From IMG/VR virus record IMGVR_UViG_3300013099_000021, positions 6,817-70,816 of that record: DNA of 64,000 nucleotides, one strand, 5' to 3'. Source of the stretch: a virus. The translations under genes and the position numbers were made by a program. The notes beneath the pieces are model-generated. The model did no database searches. It was not told where the DNA came from and saw only the letters and a list, made by a program, of their open reading frames with translations. The stretch's first letter is position 1. Each line of letters begins with the position of its first letter. Of the stretch, positions 2,229-44,318 are shown piece after piece.

Positions 2229-2867
2229 CTACAACTTCAAATTATCAGCCGTAGGCTCTATCTTAGCATTAGAGGGATTGTAGCTGTTTGGGTAAGGGTT
2301 AGGCTCATTAAGCCTCTTCAGATCCATTCCCAGCCACATAATAGCCTCCTGTACCTTTGTAATGGCAAGCGACCTCTCCCTGGAACCATGACACCCCTTT
2401 ATGTTTTGCAGTTGAGCGTCCAGGCCAACACGGAGGAGTTTGTCTGCCTTGACATCTTTCCGGTGAGCTTCTTCTTGATCAATAATCCTCTGATCCTCAA
2501 AATTGAAATGAAATGGCTCCTGGACCAGGGAATCGACAATGCTTGCAAACAAGAGATCCTTCTTCTGCTGAAATACAGGTAACTTGTCGAATGTAACGAT
2601 ACAAGGGTGTGTCTTAGCACCGGGATCTTTCACCTCTCCCCACTCCCAACCATCATCAAGTTTATCTTTCACCCAGTTATTGTGCTGCGCTTCATGCCCT
2701 GCTCTCGGATTTTCAAGCCTGAACTGAACACCTTTAATGGCTGAATCCTGTTGCCATTTAGGTGCCTCAAACCAATCTGATTGACTGTCATCACCATTAG
2801 CCTCGCACCATGCCTTGTTAGCCTGGTGGCATACAATGGCCACGTAAATAATCATACTTTCATTCAT
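2229..2867 (-). CDS. RyR-domain protein fused to Acb2/Tad1-like helical hairpin
   Basis: HNNW...GWEWGEVKD..KTHPCIV.FDKLP (RyR); C-terminal SRERSLAITKVQEAIMWL; start at MNES 2867. Confidence 0.65.
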   Translation of the reverse strand: MNESMIIYVAIVCHQANKAWCEANGDDSQSDWFEAPKWQQDSAIKGVQFRLENPRAGHEAQHNNWVKDKLDDGWEWGEVKDPGAKTHPCIVTFDKLPVFQQKKDLLFASIVDSLVQEPFHFNFEDQRIIDQEEAHRKDVKADKLLRVGLDAQLQNIKGCHGSRERSLAITKVQEAIMWLGMDLKRLNEPNPYPNSYNPSNAKIEPTADNLKL

Positions 2868-2888
2868 AATTTGATATTTAAGGTTTAT

Positions 2889-2925
2889 AAAAAAAGGGTA
2901 GTAAGCCATCTCAGCTAACTACCCC
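2889..2925 (-). terminator. rho-independent terminator
   Basis: GGGTAGTTAGC-TGAGATG-GCTTACTACCC-TTTTTTT on - strand. Confidence 0.75.
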
Positions 2926-2967: not shown

Positions 2968-4503
2968 TCAAATACTATTTAACAAGGTGTTAATCTCTGC
3001 CGTTGTTGCTTTGTAGCAAAAATCCTCCTTCACCCTGTACTCTTGAAACTGGGGGAACTTGGTTTTAAGCATGGTGTCAAAGACTCCGTTATCAACACCG
3101 GCCACGTTAGCCATCTCTTCGAATAAAGTCTTAACCTGATCAAAACCCCTCTTGCCATCCACCAGGTCAGGAACATCGATGTTGAACTTATTGGTGTCCA
3201 CTCTTTCCTCGATAGGAGGCAAAGGATCTAGTTCCGGCTCTGGTTCCTGATTGCCCACTGGCTCCACCTCGATCTCATCAGTGGTCCTGGACTCATACTC
3301 GGCCTGTTGAGGATCTTCCGGTATCTTCTCTCCTATTGGTGGCATCTTGGCCACTGTGGAAGGATCACTTAGATCTGGATTTGCTGTTGGATCAAACTTC
3401 TCAATCATTCCGACCACATTACCCTCATAGAAGGAAAGGATAATCAACCGGAGCTTCTTATTGGTATTCTTCCCTGGATCAATTTCCCTGGCCTTGGTCA
3501 TCAGCCCATCACACTCAATTATAGTATTGAGATCTGCTGTGTCCATCTCCTTCATCTCCTCCATAGAGTAAACCATTACGAACCCCGGTGTGCCGTTAAG
3601 CATGGTGCCCTTGCTCTCTCTGGCTGGTTGATCGTCCTGGGTAACTGGATATGACTCTCCCAGTGTAGAAGGATACTTCTTCGCCTGACTGTCATCGGGC
3701 ATAGCATCATGCTCTACTGGTGGTGGTGGCTCCAAATCCCCTGCTCTCTTGTCGATCTGGGAATTAGCCTTGCTGGTCAGATCCTCGCTCCTATTCTTGG
3801 AGAAATCCTTATCCGGGATAATAACCTCTGTGCCTTGATTGGTGGTGACTACAACAGTGGTGTCCTGTGGCAGATCCATCGCTTCCTCAGTGGTGTAACT
3901 ACCACTCAGCACATCAGGAAACAGATCCCTGGCAAGGAAGCCAAGCACCCTGTATGCAATCATCCTCTCCGGATACTTGTACCATGCAGATTTAAGGTAC
4001 TTCCAACCATCCTGCCCATTGATCATCTTCTGAGTAATCCACAAGCCTGCTCTCTTAGCCTGGTCTACACCAAAGGTCCTGGACATGGTTTCCTGTGTAT
4101 CGGATCTCTTGGCAGTAATGGTACACTCATAACTTTCGTCACTAAGCGAACCAGTGATAGTTTCTTTCCAAGTTCCCGGGGCGAGCTTACCTGATTTGAA
4201 GATAAGCGTCTTAGCTGCATCTCCCTTGATACTGAGCAGACCGTTCACTGGGATAATGTGCTGCAGAGCTACCAATGGCTTTAGGCCAAGGTCATCACCA
4301 TGCACACAAACCAGGATAACCGAAGCTACATTCCCTTTGGCGTAGTCCGGCTTCCCTTTGTCATTCTTCTCGTAGAAATGATCAGGGGCCAGCCTGCTGT
4401 CCAGTATCATCTGTGCAGCCACCTTCATCTCATCTAGATTTTTAATTGCAGTGTCCAGGAATGTTCCTGTTCCGACTACTGCCACTTTTCTTTCTTGTTC
4501 CAT
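2968..4503 (-). CDS. RecT-like ssDNA annealing protein with long acidic C-terminal extension
   Basis: LGLKPLVALQHIIPVNG...AKRAGLW...WYKYPERMIAYRVLGFLARDLFPDVLSG motifs; partner YqaJ exonuclease in the same operon. Confidence 0.7.
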   Translation of the reverse strand: MEQERKVAVVGTGTFLDTAIKNLDEMKVAAQMILDSRLAPDHFYEKNDKGKPDYAKGNVASVILVCVHGDDLGLKPLVALQHIIPVNGLLSIKGDAAKTLIFKSGKLAPGTWKETITGSLSDESYECTITAKRSDTQETMSRTFGVDQAKRAGLWITQKMINGQDGWKYLKSAWYKYPERMIAYRVLGFLARDLFPDVLSGSYTTEEAMDLPQDTTVVVTTNQGTEVIIPDKDFSKNRSEDLTSKANSQIDKRAGDLEPPPPVEHDAMPDDSQAKKYPSTLGESYPVTQDDQPARESKGTMLNGTPGFVMVYSMEEMKEMDTADLNTIIECDGLMTKAREIDPGKNTNKKLRLIILSFYEGNVVGMIEKFDPTANPDLSDPSTVAKMPPIGEKIPEDPQQAEYESRTTDEIEVEPVGNQEPEPELDPLPPIEERVDTNKFNIDVPDLVDGKRGFDQVKTLFEEMANVAGVDNGVFDTMLKTKFPQFQEYRVKEDFCYKATTAEINTLLNSI

Positions 4504-4522
4504 ATAATTTTGATTTTTAAGG

Positions 4523-5092
4523 TTATTTTACTTGTTTAAATTCGACTACCTCGAACACGCCAAACTCACCCTTATGTTCTGGCCTGTAACTTCCAATACC
4601 AAACATGGTCCCGGCAAACTCTAATATTGACTCAACGGTTTGTTTGGTGATCGTGTCATTCTTCACGTTAATAGTGAAGGAGAGGGATAAATCATTCCAC
4701 CTGGGTCTGATCGCAATGATTCGTGCCTTGACATTCCGGTTTACGGCACTACGCTTGTCAATAGTGTCGAAATCCCTGACAATAATCTCCTCCGGAGAGA
4801 CTGTGAATAGACCGGCAACGATGTTTGTCATGGACTTTCGACCATTGCCGACCTTTGCTTTCACCTGTGTCCCTCCATTTATTAGGGATTGCTTGATGTG
4901 TTCAGAAGGAACGAAACATTCCCCCTTACTGTTGCGATAACAGTGGAACTCTGCACGAACGAGATCCTCTTGGTTTACATCATCTCTCTCAATGATTTTA
5001 CCCCTGTTCTTTTCCCATTCTTCTAATTTCTGATCATCCATCCGATGTTGCATATACTTCTCGGTGTGGATCTTTACTCTAAATTGTTTCAT
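4523..5092 (-). CDS. stand-alone Cas7/RAMP-like protein (about 189 aa)
   Basis: N-terminal beta strand, YRNSKGECFVPSEHIKQSL (RAMP 'IPGSSLKG' equivalent), C-terminal Gly loop GIGSYRPEHKGEFGVFEV; ATG 5092 preceded by TCAAAGCT as in other genes here. Confidence 0.7.
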   Translation of the reverse strand: MKQFRVKIHTEKYMQHRMDDQKLEEWEKNRGKIIERDDVNQEDLVRAEFHCYRNSKGECFVPSEHIKQSLINGGTQVKAKVGNGRKSMTNIVAGLFTVSPEEIIVRDFDTIDKRSAVNRNVKARIIAIRPRWNDLSLSFTINVKNDTITKQTVESILEFAGTMFGIGSYRPEHKGEFGVFEVVEFKQVK

Positions 5093-5114
5093 AGCTTTGA
5101 ATTTTAAATTAAAC

Positions 5115-5474
5115 AAAAAATTACTGAACGAAACTAAACTCTACTTGACCTCACAAAACATCACATAACTAAACTTCAAAATACTGCACCTAACTCGACT
5201 TTACTTTACCTTGCGTTACTAAACATCACATCACACAACAGTACCAAACTTTAAAATACTATACATAACAGGACCCCACTTTACAACACAAAACCAAACA
5301 TCAAAATACTTGACTTCACAACACTTCACAGAACCCAACTTTACATAACATAACAACAAATTACTTTACAAAACTCAACTCAACGGCACATAACGTGACA
5401 CTACCTCACTATACTTTAAAATACTATACCGCACAAGACAATACCCTACCCCACATAACGTCACATGACCCTAC
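5115..5474 (-). ncRNA. 5-nt-periodic (GT-NNN)n guide-like array, six blocks separated by GTAWTTTNNN linkers
   Basis: AC in perfect 5-nt phase on + strand in 65 of 71 slots from 5120-5474; linkers at 5115, 5175, 5250, 5300, 5355, 5415; blocks of 10, 13, 8, 9, 10, 10 units. The repeat is directly seen; RNA function is inferred. Confidence 0.8.
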
Positions 5475-5475
5475 C

Positions 5476-6054
5476 TCAATAGTTTAATTGGTTGTGTTTC
5501 GATGTCCAGTTTCGGTCCCCTGGTGGATTCCAGGGTATTCCCAAAAAGTCAAAGAACGCATATTCAGTATCAAAGACCGGGGGCTTTGTTTCCTTCCCCT
5601 TAAACTCCTTTTTCAGGGTCCATTTAGATGCTTTTTTGTCACATTCAGCCTTACGCCTCAATCCCCACTCGGTACCGCACCATCCTAACCGGTTCCATGT
5701 AATTGCCAGTTTGATATGGCTGAAAGCAGAAGATCCTGTTCTGATTGCCAAAATTCGACCATAATCATGGCGCTGCGCTATATAAAGTTCCACCTGGATC
5801 TTGTCTTTAGGGTACTTAAACCGCTTTAGACGCTTACCATTGACAACCATCCCTGGATACTTTTCATGGAAGAGATTGTCCAGGCTGTTAAAAGCGCTCT
5901 CAGTGCAAACTATCTCAATATCGCCAACCTCCTTACATCCCCTGCGAACACTACCAGCTATCTCCCTGACATCTGTGTATGGTTCGATGAGGATAAGGAA
6001 CCGTCTGGCTACATTGAGTGCCTTTTCTAATTTGATCTTTTCTCCGCTACTCAT
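5476..6054 (-). CDS. minimal PolX-family nucleotidyltransferase
   Basis: IAGSVRRGCKEVGDIEIV, VELYI, RTGS motifs, C-terminal TEYAFFDFLGIPWNPP; start at MSSGEK 6054. Confidence 0.8.
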   Translation of the reverse strand: MSSGEKIKLEKALNVARRFLILIEPYTDVREIAGSVRRGCKEVGDIEIVCTESAFNSLDNLFHEKYPGMVVNGKRLKRFKYPKDKIQVELYIAQRHDYGRILAIRTGSSAFSHIKLAITWNRLGWCGTEWGLRRKAECDKKASKWTLKKEFKGKETKPPVFDTEYAFFDFLGIPWNPPGDRNWTSKHNQLNY

Positions 6055-6730
6055 CTCTGAGCTTTTTCGCAAAGTACGTCTGTCCCTTTCCTGTGATCTT
6101 TGTTGTCCTGCTAGTGAAAGTTTGATCTGCTGCTCCAATGGTTCTCTCAATCACTTCAAATAAACCTTGCTGAACATAGTTCTGATACGGTTCATTGCCT
6201 CTATTAAGGTACCCATTGTCCCGGAACCACTTAAATAACCTGTTCTGGCCTATCTCAAAACCGTCATCGCTCAAAATCTTTGCGAAGTGTCTTGTTAGAA
6301 TAGAGTTATCACTTCCGGAAACAGCATCAGCAAAAACAACCTTTGATCTGTCATTTTCGATTTTCGCTTCAAGGGCAAGTCGCTTTTGATACTCCTCCTG
6401 CCAGTTCTGAACCAGTTTAAGAACTGTCTCTGGATTGGTGAAGTCAATAGCTTTCTGTTCCAGCTCCTCCCACCTACGGTTAATCTTTATCCTTAACTCA
6501 ACACTATACCCAGTCATCAAGTCAAATGTCTGTATCCGGCTTAGAAGAAATTGAGGCTGCTCTTTGTTCTGCTCGTTCCGATAAGAGGACCGCTCAAGTT
6601 TGGGCAGTCCTAATTTCTCGTAGTTAACATTCAGAGTTTCAATATCACGAAGAACGTGCTTGTGTTGCTTCCCTGTCAACTCCGCAATCTCACGGCTTGA
6701 CATCGACTGCTTATTTGCTAATTCTTCCAT
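6047..6730 (-). CDS. Rha-family/ANT antirepressor
   Basis: MSSREIAELTGKQHKHVLRDI (Rha N-term); IGQNRLFKWFRDNGYL...TKITGKGQTYF (ANT C-term). Confidence 0.85.
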   Translation of the reverse strand: MEELANKQSMSSREIAELTGKQHKHVLRDIETLNVNYEKLGLPKLERSSYRNEQNKEQPQFLLSRIQTFDLMTGYSVELRIKINRRWEELEQKAIDFTNPETVLKLVQNWQEEYQKRLALEAKIENDRSKVVFADAVSGSDNSILTRHFAKILSDDGFEIGQNRLFKWFRDNGYLNRGNEPYQNYVQQGLFEVIERTIGAADQTFTSRTTKITGKGQTYFAKKLRDE

Positions 6731-7044
6731 TATTCCCGATCTACGATACAACTGGTGCCTTCCAGGTTAGTGAACCATCTGGCCTTGCCACCGCCATCGA
6801 TGTGCTTCCTCCCTCTCAGGTGGAAATCAATGTTGACCCAATCGCCCTCACGGATATTATTAAGCATATCCATGTTGTCGTTCACAAAATCAAATGCGAA
6901 CTCCTGCTTGTACTTAGACAATACCCACCCTTCCATTACTATGGTGCGCTTCATTAAACTCTCTGTGCCTGGAATTAAACCAGGCATACCGACCCATAAT
7001 ACCTTGCCGGAGATTGCGAACTCATTTACTTGTGTTTTTCCCAT
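6730..7044 (-). CDS. DUF3127-family single-stranded DNA-binding protein
   Basis: KYKQEFAFDF...GDWVNIDFHLRGR...RWFTNLEG, Bacteroidota/crAss-type SSB. Confidence 0.75.
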   Translation of the reverse strand: MGKTQVNEFAISGKVLWVGMPGLIPGTESLMKRTIVMEGWVLSKYKQEFAFDFVNDNMDMLNNIREGDWVNIDFHLRGRKHIDGGGKARWFTNLEGTSCIVDRE

Positions 7045-43196: not shown

Positions 43197-44318
43197 TTAG
43201 GTCCAATTTGTTGCCAGTGGCGCTCTCCTCCATGTGTCGGTTGCTACACACACATAGATGTAGTCCTCATCATAGGCTATCTGATCAACTGTTCCTGTTG
43301 ATGTTGGGGTGGCCGGTGCTGTCTGCCACAGGATCCCCATCACCTCGGTTGCTGTCAGCGCATCGATATTCCCGGATGTTACCCTTCCAACGATAGTCTG
43401 CTCTGCCACTGTCAACGCCACTGGTGTATTGTCCGTGGTGGCATACAGGATGGTGTGAGCATTAAACGTAGCCTGGGCCACATAGGTCGTTGCTGCGTTT
43501 GCGGTGGTCAGGTAATCGGTGGCTGTCTCATAAGCCATCGTCCCGGGGGCACCCGCACCATCTTTGATTAACGTTCCGGTTGTTCCGTCCCAAATGGCGA
43601 AATATCCGTCAGTGGAACTGGCAGGTCCAGTAACGGCACCATCAATATTGGTTTGGACAATATCCCAGTTCGCTCCAACAGTGGCATGATCACCGGTTGC
43701 TGTGCTGTCGGTGTTACAAAGAAGCCAATCACCTACCTCAACATTCACACCAGACGCTCCACCGATCTTTCCTGCCACACTTACGACATACAGATCCCCT
43801 GCATCGGCAGCCGGATAATCCGGGTTGGTAGAACAATCGATCACACCCTTATAGACCAGGGCGTTGTTGTCACCAAGAATACCGTCCACATAGGTTTTGT
43901 TGGCGAGATCTGATCCTGCGGAAGGGGCGGTTACAACAGTTGCTTTGGCGAAGGTAGCGTCCTTGGCCTCGATGTCAGCGTAGGTCGCTCCACCATTCAC
44001 CTTCACTCCAAACTTGGAAGCACTCTCGGCTGTCAGCTCAATCTGGAAACCATCGTTGTCCAGTTCAAAGGTTAAGGAGGTTGTTCCGGTGTCTGTGTTC
44101 TGAGTGTGACCGGCTGCTATAACCACCCACTTTAAACCGGTTAACTCGGCATCATCACGGACGAGCATATACCCGTCTGTGCCAGCGGCTAAGACAGTGG
44201 GAGTCTGATTCGCTATTGCTGACAGAACATCTCCCTTGGATAGGTTCACAAACTTCTCTGAATATTCTACCAGAGTAGCGTGAACATTTTGGGTTAAAAG
44301 AATATCATACTGAGCCAT
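43197..44318 (-). CDS. tail fibre-associated protein
   Basis: N-term paralogous to 39797-43183; ANKTYVD, YKGVID, C-term YIYVCVATDTWRR. Confidence 0.7.
   Translation of the reverse strand: MAQYDILLTQNVHATLVEYSEKFVNLSKGDVLSAIANQTPTVLAAGTDGYMLVRDDAELTGLKWVVIAAGHTQNTDTGTTSLTFELDNDGFQIELTAESASKFGVKVNGGATYADIEAKDATFAKATVVTAPSAGSDLANKTYVDGILGDNNALVYKGVIDCSTNPDYPAADAGDLYVVSVAGKIGGASGVNVEVGDWLLCNTDSTATGDHATVGANWDIVQTNIDGAVTGPASSTDGYFAIWDGTTGTLIKDGAGAPGTMAYETATDYLTTANAATTYVAQATFNAHTILYATTDNTPVALTVAEQTIVGRVTSGNIDALTATEVMGILWQTAPATPTSTGTVDQIAYDEDYIYVCVATDTWRRAPLATNWT

What the first reader, a model, noticed from the sequence alone, without database searches (positions are those of the whole stretch)
4523..5474. 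Compact RNA-guided-like system: solo Cas7/RAMP-like gene plus a GT-NNN pentamer array
Seen: from 5120 to 5474, AC recurs in exact 5-nt phase (65 of 71 slots, one GC variant, five linker slots) while the other three bases vary freely. On the sense (-) strand this reads (GT-NNN)n. The array starts 1 nt after the PolX-like stop and ends about 20 nt before a 189-aa ORF with RAMP hallmarks (VPSEHIKQSL; Gly loop GIGSYRPEHKGEFG). No cas1/2/5/6/8/10 and no classical repeats are in the window. Known: Cas7 proteins polymerise on RNA with a fixed nucleotide step. Inference: each subunit binds one pentamer through the constant GU and displays the variable bases, giving a non-contiguous guide. From memory, unverified, this resembles recently reported viral 'VIPR' systems with GGY/NN units; here the constant part is only GT, so it may be a distinct variant.
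Basis: partly seen in the sequence, partly recalled or inferred. Interest (0 to 1): 0.97.

Follow-up and report, generated by a model that had tools for sequence, protein, structure and literature searches.

The report
Phage VIPR system with GY-NNN guides
A sediment phage carries a small Cas7-like protein gene preceded by six guide RNAs written in five-letter repeats, a member of the VIPR RNA-guided DNA-silencing systems first described in 2026, and its guides hint that this branch reads three letters per repeat instead of two.

Summary

This is a VIPR system, a family in print since April 2026. Its repeat is N-G-Y-N-N, the "YNNNG" alternative named in that paper's Methods. It holds six head-to-tail guides of 9-14 units, joined by 5-nt U-rich linkers. 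No partner gene is conserved across 19 loci.

Beyond the papers' main texts: guide 1 spells, codon for codon, the conserved motif RHDYGRILAI of the PolX-like gene 297 nt upstream, using other synonymous codons. Two relatives show the same pattern with neighbouring genes. The third variable base gives the right amino acid at 17 of 18 informative codons (P about 3e-4). It therefore seems target-matched, though no exact target was found.

This scan has noted VIPR loci in at least 640 other genomes.

The parts
4523..5092 (-). vipr gene, 189 aa (P0001), stop codon included
5093..5120 (-). A/T-rich leader between array and vipr start; includes the last linker slot (5116-5120, TTTTT) and one stray TGTTT unit (5111-5115)
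5121..5475 (-). vrRNA array: 71 pentamer slots in one phase, register N-G-Y-N-N, six guides
   Evidence: It is the only such array in the 70.8-kb record. It is identical in contigs of three other public runs.
5421..5475 (-). guide 1 (11 units). Units 1-10 decode, as N4N5 plus N1 of the next unit, to codons for RHDYGRILAI
5361..5415 (-). guide 2 (11 units), preceded by linker 5416-5420 (TTTAA)
   Evidence: no target found.
5306..5355 (-). guide 3 (10 units), preceded by linker 5356-5360 (TTTGT)
   Evidence: no target found.
5256..5300 (-). guide 4 (9 units), preceded by linker 5301-5305 (TTTGA)
   Evidence: no target found.
5181..5250 (-). guide 5 (14 units, one with G-C instead of G-T at slot 53), preceded by linker 5251-5255 (TTTAA)
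   Evidence: exact NNx scan of IMG/VR gave 0 hits.
5121..5175 (-). guide 6 (11 units), preceded by linker 5176-5180 (TTTGA)
   Evidence: exact NNx scan of IMG/VR gave 0 hits.
5743..5772 (-). Site in the phage's own PolX-like gene that encodes the same 10 residues as decoded guide 1, with different synonymous codons
   Evidence: 17 of 20 first and second codon bases match, 10 of 10 residues match, and 3 of 10 third bases are identical.
5476..6054 (-). PolX-like (DNA polymerase beta thumb/palm) gene, 192 aa from the ATG at 6054. A neighbour, not a conserved part of the system
   Evidence: Pfam PF14791 E 3.7e-5, 23.9 bits, just under the 25-bit cut-off. 344 homologues, mostly 192-195 aa. A homologue is present in only 1 of 18 related records.

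Best explanation
This is a VIPR (Viral Interference Programmable Repeat) system of an uncultured 71-kb phage from sediment-type metagenomes; relatives sit in Bacteroidota-labelled assemblies.

By homology with SUSP1 VIPR, the stretch 5475-5121 is transcribed with or just ahead of vipr. It yields six vrRNAs of 9-14 pentamers. Vipr protomers polymerise on each RNA, one per pentamer. They hold the constant G and pyrimidine, and present the variable bases to double-stranded DNA. This silences genes of rival mobile elements.

The branch differs from the published type II systems in four ways:
- Only G2 and Y3 are constant (the YNNNG consensus).
- The guides are joined head to tail, in phase, by 5-nt U-rich slots that lack the G. 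Each guide ends in AGTAW rather than a long structured tail.
- No accessory gene is conserved.
- Probably all three variable bases are matched to three consecutive target bases.

Guide 1 is most likely aimed at another allele of the PolX-like gene carried by related phages. The phage's own copy, 297 nt away, differs at 10 of 30 bases, all synonymous.

Shown here: the array, the homology, the fold, the gene-array linkage across relatives, and the codon-like third base.

Inferred: transcription, processing, filament formation, DNA binding, silencing and the identity of the targets.
For: Array:
- 65 of 72 slots carry GT in one phase.

Protein:
- Sequence hit to SUSP1 Vipr, E 6.1e-6. The family profile scores E 2.3e-13 over the full length and is the only PDB hit.
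- Model pLDDT is 83.4.

Linkage of array and gene:
- 14 of 15 IMG/VR relatives have G-Y period-5 arrays touching the gene on the same strand.
- In 16 whole records (1.13 Mb, both strands), all 34 array calls lie inside the vipr loci.

RNA-contact residues named by the cryo-EM paper, aligned:
- H17, R138 and R179 are kept (H16, R129 and R170, invariant in 32 sequences).
- W178 becomes Y or F.
- D177, which reads the first G, is an invariant Ser. This fits the loss of that G: G in 13 of 66 units here, and 14% of 731 units in 17 genomes.

Third base:
- An NNx scan of 50 guides against 16 genomes gave three stand-outs under 1-nt skip, each in the guide's own genome. Shown over the full guides, they match 18/22, 20/22 and 20/24 NN bases. 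They lie 297, 83 and 493 nt from the guide.
- In all three, N4N5 plus the next N1 reads as sense codons of the neighbouring gene.
- N1 gives the same residue at 17 of 18 informative codons. The composition null gives P 3.2e-4. Only 21 of 100,000 within-guide shuffles reach this. Slid registers give 7/18, 10/18 and 7/16.
- N1 equals the self third base at only 7 of 25 sites.
- Guide 7 of G001 matches the window's vipr better at N1 (6 of 11) than its own vipr (4 of 11).
- Its decoded 11-mer peptide occurs in 4 of 120 listed Vipr homologues but not in its own Vipr.
Against: - No exact target was found for any window guide. NNx scans of IMG/VR for guides 1, 5 and 6 gave 0 hits. A 9-unit guide-1 scan of the metagenome collection gave 2 hits, both unrelated GC-rich DNA.
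- Guides 2-6 have no match above background in 19 related genomes.
- With 8-unit windows, the 1-nt-skip rule gives 28 hits at 15/16 or better, against 17, 22 and 26 for the control rules. Beyond the three cases, the signal is weak.
- Over all 50 guides the N4N5N1 frame is not depleted of stop codons (30 stops; N1-shuffle mean 28.6). Most guides therefore cannot be shown to be sense coding copies.
- The third-base argument rests on three guide-gene pairs.
- No RNA run holds the locus, so expression and processing are unseen.
- The self sites pass the published 80% NN threshold (82-91%). Under the published rule they would count as self-targets.
- Supplementary tables and figures of the papers, which may classify this clade and its repeat, were closed.
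Confidence: 0.85

Rival explanations
1. The system is canonical VIPR with the published two-base, 1-nt-skip code, and the self-matching guides are autoregulatory. Each RNP binds a site a few hundred bases from its own array and roadblocks transcription through the locus as feedback. The first unit base is ignored.
For: The three self sites match at 82-91% of NN positions, above the 80% threshold used in print. All three lie within 500 nt of the guide. In the window, the site lies upstream of the array and vipr on the same strand, where a roadblock would lower their transcription. Silencing by binding coding DNA on either strand is shown for SUSP1.
Against: If N1 were ignored it should drift. 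Yet it is synonymous with the gene at 17 of 18 informative codons, while being identical at only 7 of 25 sites. The papers report no self hits at 80% or above for the P. fulva clade, type III or type V guides. Guide 7 of G001 fits foreign Vipr alleles better than its own, both in peptide and in third bases.
Confidence: 0.2
2. The self-matching guides are evolutionary leftovers. Each was copied from the neighbouring gene by an unknown local process and is now drifting, with no present target.
For: The guides lie 83-493 nt from their cognate genes in three unrelated loci. No external target was found.
Against: A drifting guide would lose codon-likeness at N1 as fast as the gene changes its synonymous sites, yet third-base identity is already at chance (7/25) while synonymy is 17/18. 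No mechanism is known that inserts G-Y after every third base. The array is identical in contigs of three further runs.
Confidence: 0.05
3. The system is a Cas7-based RNA-targeting effector, like type III or type VII CRISPR backbones, acting on transcripts rather than DNA.
For: The closest solved folds are Csm3 and type VII Cas7. SUSP1 filaments can pair with ssRNA in vitro.
Against: All three cognate sites have the same sense as the guide, so the guide cannot pair with those mRNAs. The protein is closer in sequence to SUSP1 Vipr, a dsDNA binder, than to any Cas7. No CRISPR repeats, Cas1 or Cas2 are present.
Confidence: 0.04
4. The periodic stretch is not an RNA gene. It would be a compositional or replication-slippage artefact, or a protein-coding remnant.
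For: No RNA evidence exists. Tandem Repeats Finder does not call it.
Against: The phase is kept over 355 nt with two invariant positions and three free ones. Equivalent arrays with unrelated variable bases flank the homologous gene in 14 of 15 relatives and nowhere else in 1.13 Mb.
Confidence: 0.01

Closest known systems
VIPR type II of Escherichia phage SUSP1 and the Pseudomonas fulva prophage (bioRxiv 10.64898/2026.04.26.720920 and 10.64898/2026.04.26.720927; PDB 36pp). I read the Results, Discussion and three Methods sections of the first paper, and the first part of the Results of the second.
   Same: A small, phage-borne, stand-alone RAMP protein homologous in sequence (E 2e-13, full length). 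Tandem pentamers next to the gene. 9-14 units per guide. G and pyrimidine constant. Contact residues H17, R138 and R179 conserved. No cas genes or CRISPR array.
   Different: The first G of GGY is not conserved, and its reader D177 is Ser. There is no long pseudoknotted tail. Guides abut in phase with 5-nt linkers. No conserved vap gene in 19 loci. The third variable base looks target-matched, whereas the published code skips that target base.
Alternative vrRNA consensus 'YNNNG' and 'staggered' arrays of other VIPR types (same paper: Methods 'VIPR type classification', and the legends of figs S17 and S18)
   Same: G-Y-N-N-N read cyclically is YNNNG. Guides that follow one another without spacers resemble the staggered arrays described in the legend.
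   Different: I could not see the figures or data tables, so I cannot say which of the seven types this clade is, or whether a decoding rule for YNNNG units is given. The main texts apply the NN/1-nt-skip rule throughout.
vipr-targeting vrRNAs of SUSP1-family phages (bioRxiv 10.64898/2026.10.15.759431; I read the abstract, section 8 and passages found by search)
   Same: A relative's guide (G001, guide 7) spells the 3' end of vipr. It fits foreign alleles, including the window's, better than its own.
   Different: In print, these are mostly solo guides in phages that have lost vipr, and wobble bases are skipped. Here the guide sits in a vipr-positive phage directly after its own vipr, and carries codon-like third bases.
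Cas7 backbone subunits of class 1 CRISPR effectors (Csm3 of type III-A, Cas7 of type VII)
   Different: Sequence identity is 8-15%. There is no second RRM, no partner Cas proteins and no CRISPR repeats. The step is 5 nt with constant bases inside the guide, rather than 6 nt on a free spacer.
Phage homing endonucleases with marker exclusion, and the homing guides of CRISPR-associated transposons (recalled, not read here)
   Same: A targeting element sits next to a resistant copy of the very sequence it recognises in relatives.
   Different: This is only an analogy for the linkage seen here. No nuclease or transposase belongs to the locus, and no transfer is shown.

Membership tests
VIPR system | Vipr protein homologous to characterised Vipr proteins | tested here: met
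   phmmer hit to PDB 36pp_D SUSP1 Vipr, E 6.1e-6. The profile of 32 clade members scores E 2.3e-13, aligning 1-186 to 1-190, and is the sole PDB hit.
VIPR system | Tandem pentanucleotide array with constant and hypervariable positions beside vipr, on the same strand | tested here: met
   65 of 72 slots. 14 of 15 relatives. Found only at vipr loci in 1.13 Mb.
VIPR system | Canonical GGY/NN (YNNGG) unit | tested here: not met
   The first position is G in 13 of 66 units here, and in 14% of 731 units from 17 genomes. The unit fits the alternative YNNNG consensus that the paper lists.
VIPR system | 9-16 repeats per vrRNA | tested here: met
   Guides of 11, 11, 10, 9, 14 and 11 units between linker slots. 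Boundaries are inferred from sequence, not from RNA ends.
VIPR system | Invariable structured 3' tail (a pseudoknot in the SUSP1 clade) | tested here: not met
   Guides end in AGTAW followed by one U-rich 5-nt slot. The array as a whole is not unusually structured: z -1.78, with 5 of 100 shuffles folding as well. Relatives L012 and L014 do have conserved 35- to 50-nt spacers. No Rfam ribozyme was found in 19 loci.
VIPR system | Accessory vap gene next to vipr | tested here: inconclusive
   Same-strand ORFs of 70 aa or more within 3 kb were clustered. Only vipr is shared by all 19 loci, and the next cluster covers 3 loci. The paper names six vap genes for seven types, so a vap-less type may exist.
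VIPR system | Carried by a virus or provirus, without CRISPR array or adaptation genes | tested here: met
   IMG/VR virus record, 96% complete. No Cas1 or Cas2. No CRISPR-like repeats.
VIPR system | vrRNAs expressed and bound by Vipr | not testable with these tools
   No RNA run holds the stretch. The laid runs are DNA contigs.
VIPR system | Targets recognised by NN pairing with a 1-nt skip, wobble-aligned in coding DNA | tested here: inconclusive
   Three guides match neighbouring genes at 82-91% of NN positions, wobble-aligned and in sense. The skipped base is mirrored by a codon-like N1. No external target was found.
CRISPR-Cas class 1 (type III or VII) effector | Cas7 backbone together with CRISPR repeats, a large subunit and other cas genes | tested here: not met
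   Only the fold is shared. No repeats, Cas1 or Cas2. cas5/6/8/10 were not searched individually.

The most novel reading that the evidence does not exclude
In this Vipr clade the code would be G-Y out, N-N-N in: three consecutive guide bases pair with three consecutive target bases, so nothing is skipped. That would let a phage aim guides at a rival's allele of a gene it also carries, telling self from rival by synonymous differences alone. Selection would then keep each such guide tightly linked to the resistant self allele. This is a poison-antidote or homing-like arrangement, which would explain why the cognate genes lie 83-493 nt from their guides in three unrelated phages.
Probability: 0.35. 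Interest if true: 0.85.

Novelty: new member of a known kind. Interest (0 to 1): 0.58.

Why it matters
VIPR is a months-old class of RNA-guided DNA binders, and only type II has been studied at the bench. This locus is a compact, partner-free representative of a large clade: 690 homologues at E <= 0.001. Its constant part is reduced to two bases.

If the third variable base is really read, the family holds at least two codes. One skips wobble bases and resists synonymous escape. The other reads them and can discriminate between alleles. That bears on how such codes evolve and on specificity when the proteins are used as tools.

The pairing of guides with nearby self genes also gives a concrete, testable model of self versus rival discrimination between related phages.

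Tried and rejected
**Target searches that found nothing**
- Exact 1-nt-skip patterns in IMG/VR: guide 1 (10 units), guide 5 (12 units) and guide 6 (10 units) each gave 0 hits.
- Guide 1, 9 units, in the metagenome collection gave 2 hits. Both are unrelated GC-rich DNA with 2-3 of 9 third bases matching.
- The pattern of G001 guide 7 in IMG/VR gave 2 hits: its own record and an unrelated contig.
- Guides 2-4 were not scanned in public collections.
- Mismatch-tolerant scans found nothing beyond the three self cases. These covered all window guides under skip 0-3 against the own genome, 18 loci, 16 genomes, and 19 genomes with 8-unit windows. Several 15/16 window hits, such as G011 guide 27 on G009, sit at background level and I do not count them.

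**Other negatives**
- The stop-codon test over 50 guides showed no depletion in the N4N5N1 frame.
- G-U wobble pairing as an explanation of N1 differences: rejected by eye, because the changes go in both directions (table).
- Megablast of 6.1 kb against GenBank phages: no match.
- Hammerhead or other ribozymes between guides: none at Rfam gathering scores in 19 loci.
- Sigma-70-type promoter scan: one 9/12 site just upstream of the array (5508-5481, minus strand). The scan found 10 sites against 4.9 expected, and Bacteroidota promoters are not covered, so I do not use it.
- RNA evidence: no RNA holder is listed.
- Laying four runs showed only identical or unrelated pieces and no variant alleles of the PolX site.
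- A second IMG/VR scan with another alignment added only one locus: L107, 36% identity, also with GT-NNN units.
- Complex prediction was not used; the tool text advises against filaments.
- The papers' supplements were closed, so the VIPR type and any published treatment of YNNNG units could not be checked. 'Not in the main text' rests on reading, and on library searches.
Full report
**1. The observation**

On the minus strand the stretch 5475-5116 reads as pentamers N-G-T-N-N. GT occupies positions 2-3 in 65 of 72 slots in one phase, against 0, 0, 3 and 2 in the other four phases. Slot 72 is TTTTT.

The U-rich slots keep the 5-nt phase. They cut the array into six blocks of 11, 11, 10, 9, 14 and 11 units, and every block ends in AGTAT or AGTAA.

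The array begins 1 nt after the stop of the upstream ORF and ends 28 nt before the ATG at 5092. The ORF 4523-5092 gives 189 aa. Its start is confirmed by 31 aligned homologues.

With a criterion of at least 11 of 14 slots carrying G-Y, this is the only array on either strand of the whole 70,816-base record. The RNA is not unusually structured: z is -1.78, and 5 of 100 shuffles fold as well.

**2. The protein**

Pfam gives nothing above its cut-offs. PHROGs gives a family of unknown function (phrog_4652, E 3e-15).

Against all PDB sequences, the protein alone hits 'SUSP1 Vipr protein' (36pp_D) at E 6.1e-6. A profile of 32 clade members hits it at E 2.3e-13 over the full length, and it is the only hit.

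The AlphaFold model (pLDDT 83.4, pTM 0.78) has a Cas7 fold:
- Foldseek E is 1.2e-6 to type VII Cas7 and Csm3.

**3. Context**

The window is part of an IMG/VR virus record, 96% complete by CheckV. It has no near match among GenBank phages.

Neighbours on the same strand are:
- a PolX-like gene (5476-6054);
- an Ant/Rha anti-repressor;
- a 511-aa RecT-like gene;
- a gene with RyR and Acb2/Tad1-hairpin domains.

There is no Cas1, no Cas2 and no CRISPR-like repeat.

Pieces identical to the locus, array included, occur in contigs of three further public runs labelled sediment, hydrothermal vent and marine metagenomes. No RNA run holds it.

**4. Relatives**

The protein has 690 homologues at E <= 0.001 among near-length proteins. 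None of the 120 listed has a Pfam domain.
- Fifteen loci were found in IMG/VR.
- Three were found in contigs of GTDB assemblies labelled Cyclobacteriaceae, Draconibacterium orientale and Bacteroidales.
- A second scan added one more distant locus.

G-Y period-5 arrays touch the gene on the same strand, upstream and/or downstream, in 14 of 15 IMG/VR loci. L007 has none at this threshold, and one weak call lies on the opposite strand in L014.

I then fetched the 15 records whole. All 34 array calls in 1.13 Mb, on both strands, fall inside the vipr loci.

Architecture varies between relatives:
- L016 has the same compact in-phase array with TTTNN linkers.
- L012 and L014 separate guides by conserved 35- to 50-nt spacers.
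- Many guides end in AGTAW AGTTY T.

Across 731 units from 17 genomes:
- position 2 is always G, by construction of the search;
- position 3 is T in 88% and C in 12%;
- position 1 is A 40%, T 33%, G 14%, C 13%.

No Rfam ribozyme lies in the 19 loci. No neighbouring gene is conserved: only vipr is shared by all 19 loci.

**5. What it is**

The discovery preprint (10.64898/2026.04.26.720920; Results, Discussion and three Methods sections read) defines VIPR systems by these features:
- a stand-alone phage RAMP (Vipr);
- usually one accessory gene;
- vrRNAs of 9-16 YNNGG repeats, whose NN bases pair with dsDNA while every third target base is skipped.

Its Methods also list alternative repeats NNNGG, YNNNG and NNNNG. 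The figure legends mention staggered arrays in which one vrRNA ends where the next begins.

The locus here meets the protein, fold, array, repeat-number and viral-context criteria. Its unit G-Y-N-N-N is the YNNNG form.

The cryo-EM preprint (10.64898/2026.04.26.720927; first part of Results read) names the contact residues in SUSP1:
- the first G is read by H17 and D177;
- the second G is read by R138 and W178;
- the pyrimidine is read by a pocket that includes R179.

In the HMMER alignments and the clade alignment:
- H17, R138 and R179 are kept, and are invariant in the clade;
- W178 is Y or F;
- D177 is an invariant Ser.

That is a simple structural reason for the lost first G. It is an inference from alignment, not a test.

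**6. Targets**

Exact 1-nt-skip patterns for guides 1, 5 and 6 found nothing in IMG/VR. A 9-unit pattern for guide 1 found only two unrelated sequences in the metagenome collection.

In the phage's own genome, guide 1 has its best 1-nt-skip match (18 of 22) at 5741-5772, inside the PolX-like gene. Only 1 of 300 unit-order shuffles reached 18.

A note left by the first-stage reader on the same window (e1-6212129) pointed out that this block decodes to the peptide of that gene. I tested this:
- I decoded each guide as a continuous string of its three variable bases.
- I translated it in six frames and compared it with the six-frame translation of the genome.
- Guide 1 scores 10 of 11 residues (RHDYGRILAI). 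The other 35 guide-frames score 4-7.
- The frame is N4N5 plus the N1 of the next unit, in the sense of the gene.
- The motif DYGRILAIRTGS is the most conserved stretch of this protein family.
- The full RHDYGRILAI occurs in 4 of 120 listed homologues.

**7. The same pattern in relatives**

I extracted 50 guides, later 58, and scanned them against all fetched genomes. [quoted passage not shown]

| Guide | Site | NN match (full guide) | Distance |
|---|---|---|---|
| Window guide 1 | PolX-like gene | 18/22 | 297 nt |
| G001 guide 7 | last codons of its own vipr | 20/22 | 83 nt |
| G009 guide 21 | PDDEXK-like gene | 20/24 | 493 nt |

In the peptide scan, only the N4N5N1 sense frame produced these hits (9/9, 9/9 and 8/9).

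Among codons where N4N5 match and the third base matters, N1 gives the gene's amino acid at 17 of 18:
- the exact composition null gives P 3.2e-4;
- 21 of 100,000 within-guide shuffles reach this;
- taking N1 from neighbouring units instead gives 7/18, 10/18 and 7/16.

Yet N1 is identical to the gene's third base at only 7 of 25 matched codons.

In guide 1 the three NN mismatches within units 1-10 are Arg, Arg and Leu codons switched between six-fold families. The fourth NN mismatch is in unit 11, the terminal AGTAT unit.

So the decoded guides look like diverged, synonymous copies of the neighbouring genes. That is what is expected if they match another phage's allele at all three positions.

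In line with this, G001 guide 7 fits the window's vipr better at N1 (6 of 11) than its own vipr (4 of 11). Its full 11-residue decode occurs in four listed Vipr alleles but not in its own.

A neutral, unread N1 should have lost codon-likeness as fast as the genes changed their synonymous sites.

**8. Limits**

- The argument rests on three pairs.
- Over all 50 guides, the N4N5N1 frame is not depleted of stop codons.
- Outside the three cases, the 1-nt-skip rule is barely better than control rules.
- The DNA of the candidate rival alleles could not be fetched (closed; one search found none).
- The self sites pass the published 80% NN threshold. Cis autoregulation under the published code therefore remains a live rival. 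It explains the proximity, but not the codon-like N1.
- The October 2026 preprint (10.64898/2026.10.15.759431; abstract, section 8 and passages read) already reports vipr-targeting guides, wobble-aligned targets and lower self-match scores in SUSP1-type phages. Guides aimed at rivals' VIPR genes are therefore in print.
- A read third base is not mentioned in the main texts I read, nor in library searches. Supplements were closed.

**9. Verdict**

This is a genuine VIPR locus and a new member of a family published in 2026. It belongs to a large clade with a G-Y-only scaffold, compact head-to-tail guides and no conserved partner gene.

The part that goes beyond print is the evidence that the third variable base is matched to the target, and that some guides sit next to a synonymous self copy of their target. 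It is statistically clear, but it rests on three cases and is untested at the bench.

This scan has already noted VIPR-type loci in at least 640 other genomes.

Noticed in passing
window 2229-2909 (-): A 226-aa protein with a RyR domain (E 4.9e-9) and an Acb2/Tad1 hairpin match (E 8e-6, 26.4 bits, just under the 27-bit cut-off). It is a candidate anti-defence nucleotide sponge. An earlier first-reader note (e1-6212127) also flags it.
   Followed up: no
window 2968-4503 (-): A 511-aa RecT-like annealing protein (Pfam RecT 25.7 bits; phrog_561 E 9e-24) starts 20 nt after the vipr stop. It is not conserved next to vipr in relatives.
   Followed up: partly
all arrays; window 5121-5475: The three variable positions are poor in C: 4, 7 and 7 of 66 units here, and 12-14% in 731 units. 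The sense strand of the genome has about 20% C. This may serve to avoid pairing with the constant G.
   Followed up: no
L002:2170-2799 (G001): A GIY-YIG domain gene (28 bits, above cut-off) lies directly upstream of the array and vipr in the closest IMG/VR relative. It suggests a mobile-gene neighbourhood.
   Followed up: no
L006:4123-4526: A full-length tmRNA gene (90.8 bits) lies about 550 nt downstream of vipr in a 121-kb phage record. tRNA genes lie near vipr in L016 and L019.
   Followed up: no
L007 and L017 (G006, G016): Two near-identical phage contigs carry an intact vipr but no G-Y array at the thresholds used, anywhere in the contigs.
   Followed up: partly
L015:3001-3594 (G014): vipr appears split into two ORFs of 107 and 73 aa, and only one 7-unit array is detectable. 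It may be a decaying locus.
   Followed up: no
G013, minus strand, 43877-43946: A short 8-unit G-Y period-5 run lies on the strand opposite to vipr, about 900 nt beyond the main array.
   Followed up: no
window 4400-6200 in public runs: Contig pieces identical to the locus, array included, occur in runs labelled sediment, hydrothermal vent and marine metagenomes from different studies. The guide set appears stable across samples.
   Followed up: partly
window 6047-6751 (-): An Ant/Rha anti-repressor gene (KilAC E 2e-27) overlaps the TTG-extended reading of the PolX-like ORF. Homologue lengths favour the ATG at 6054 as the PolX-like start.
   Followed up: partly
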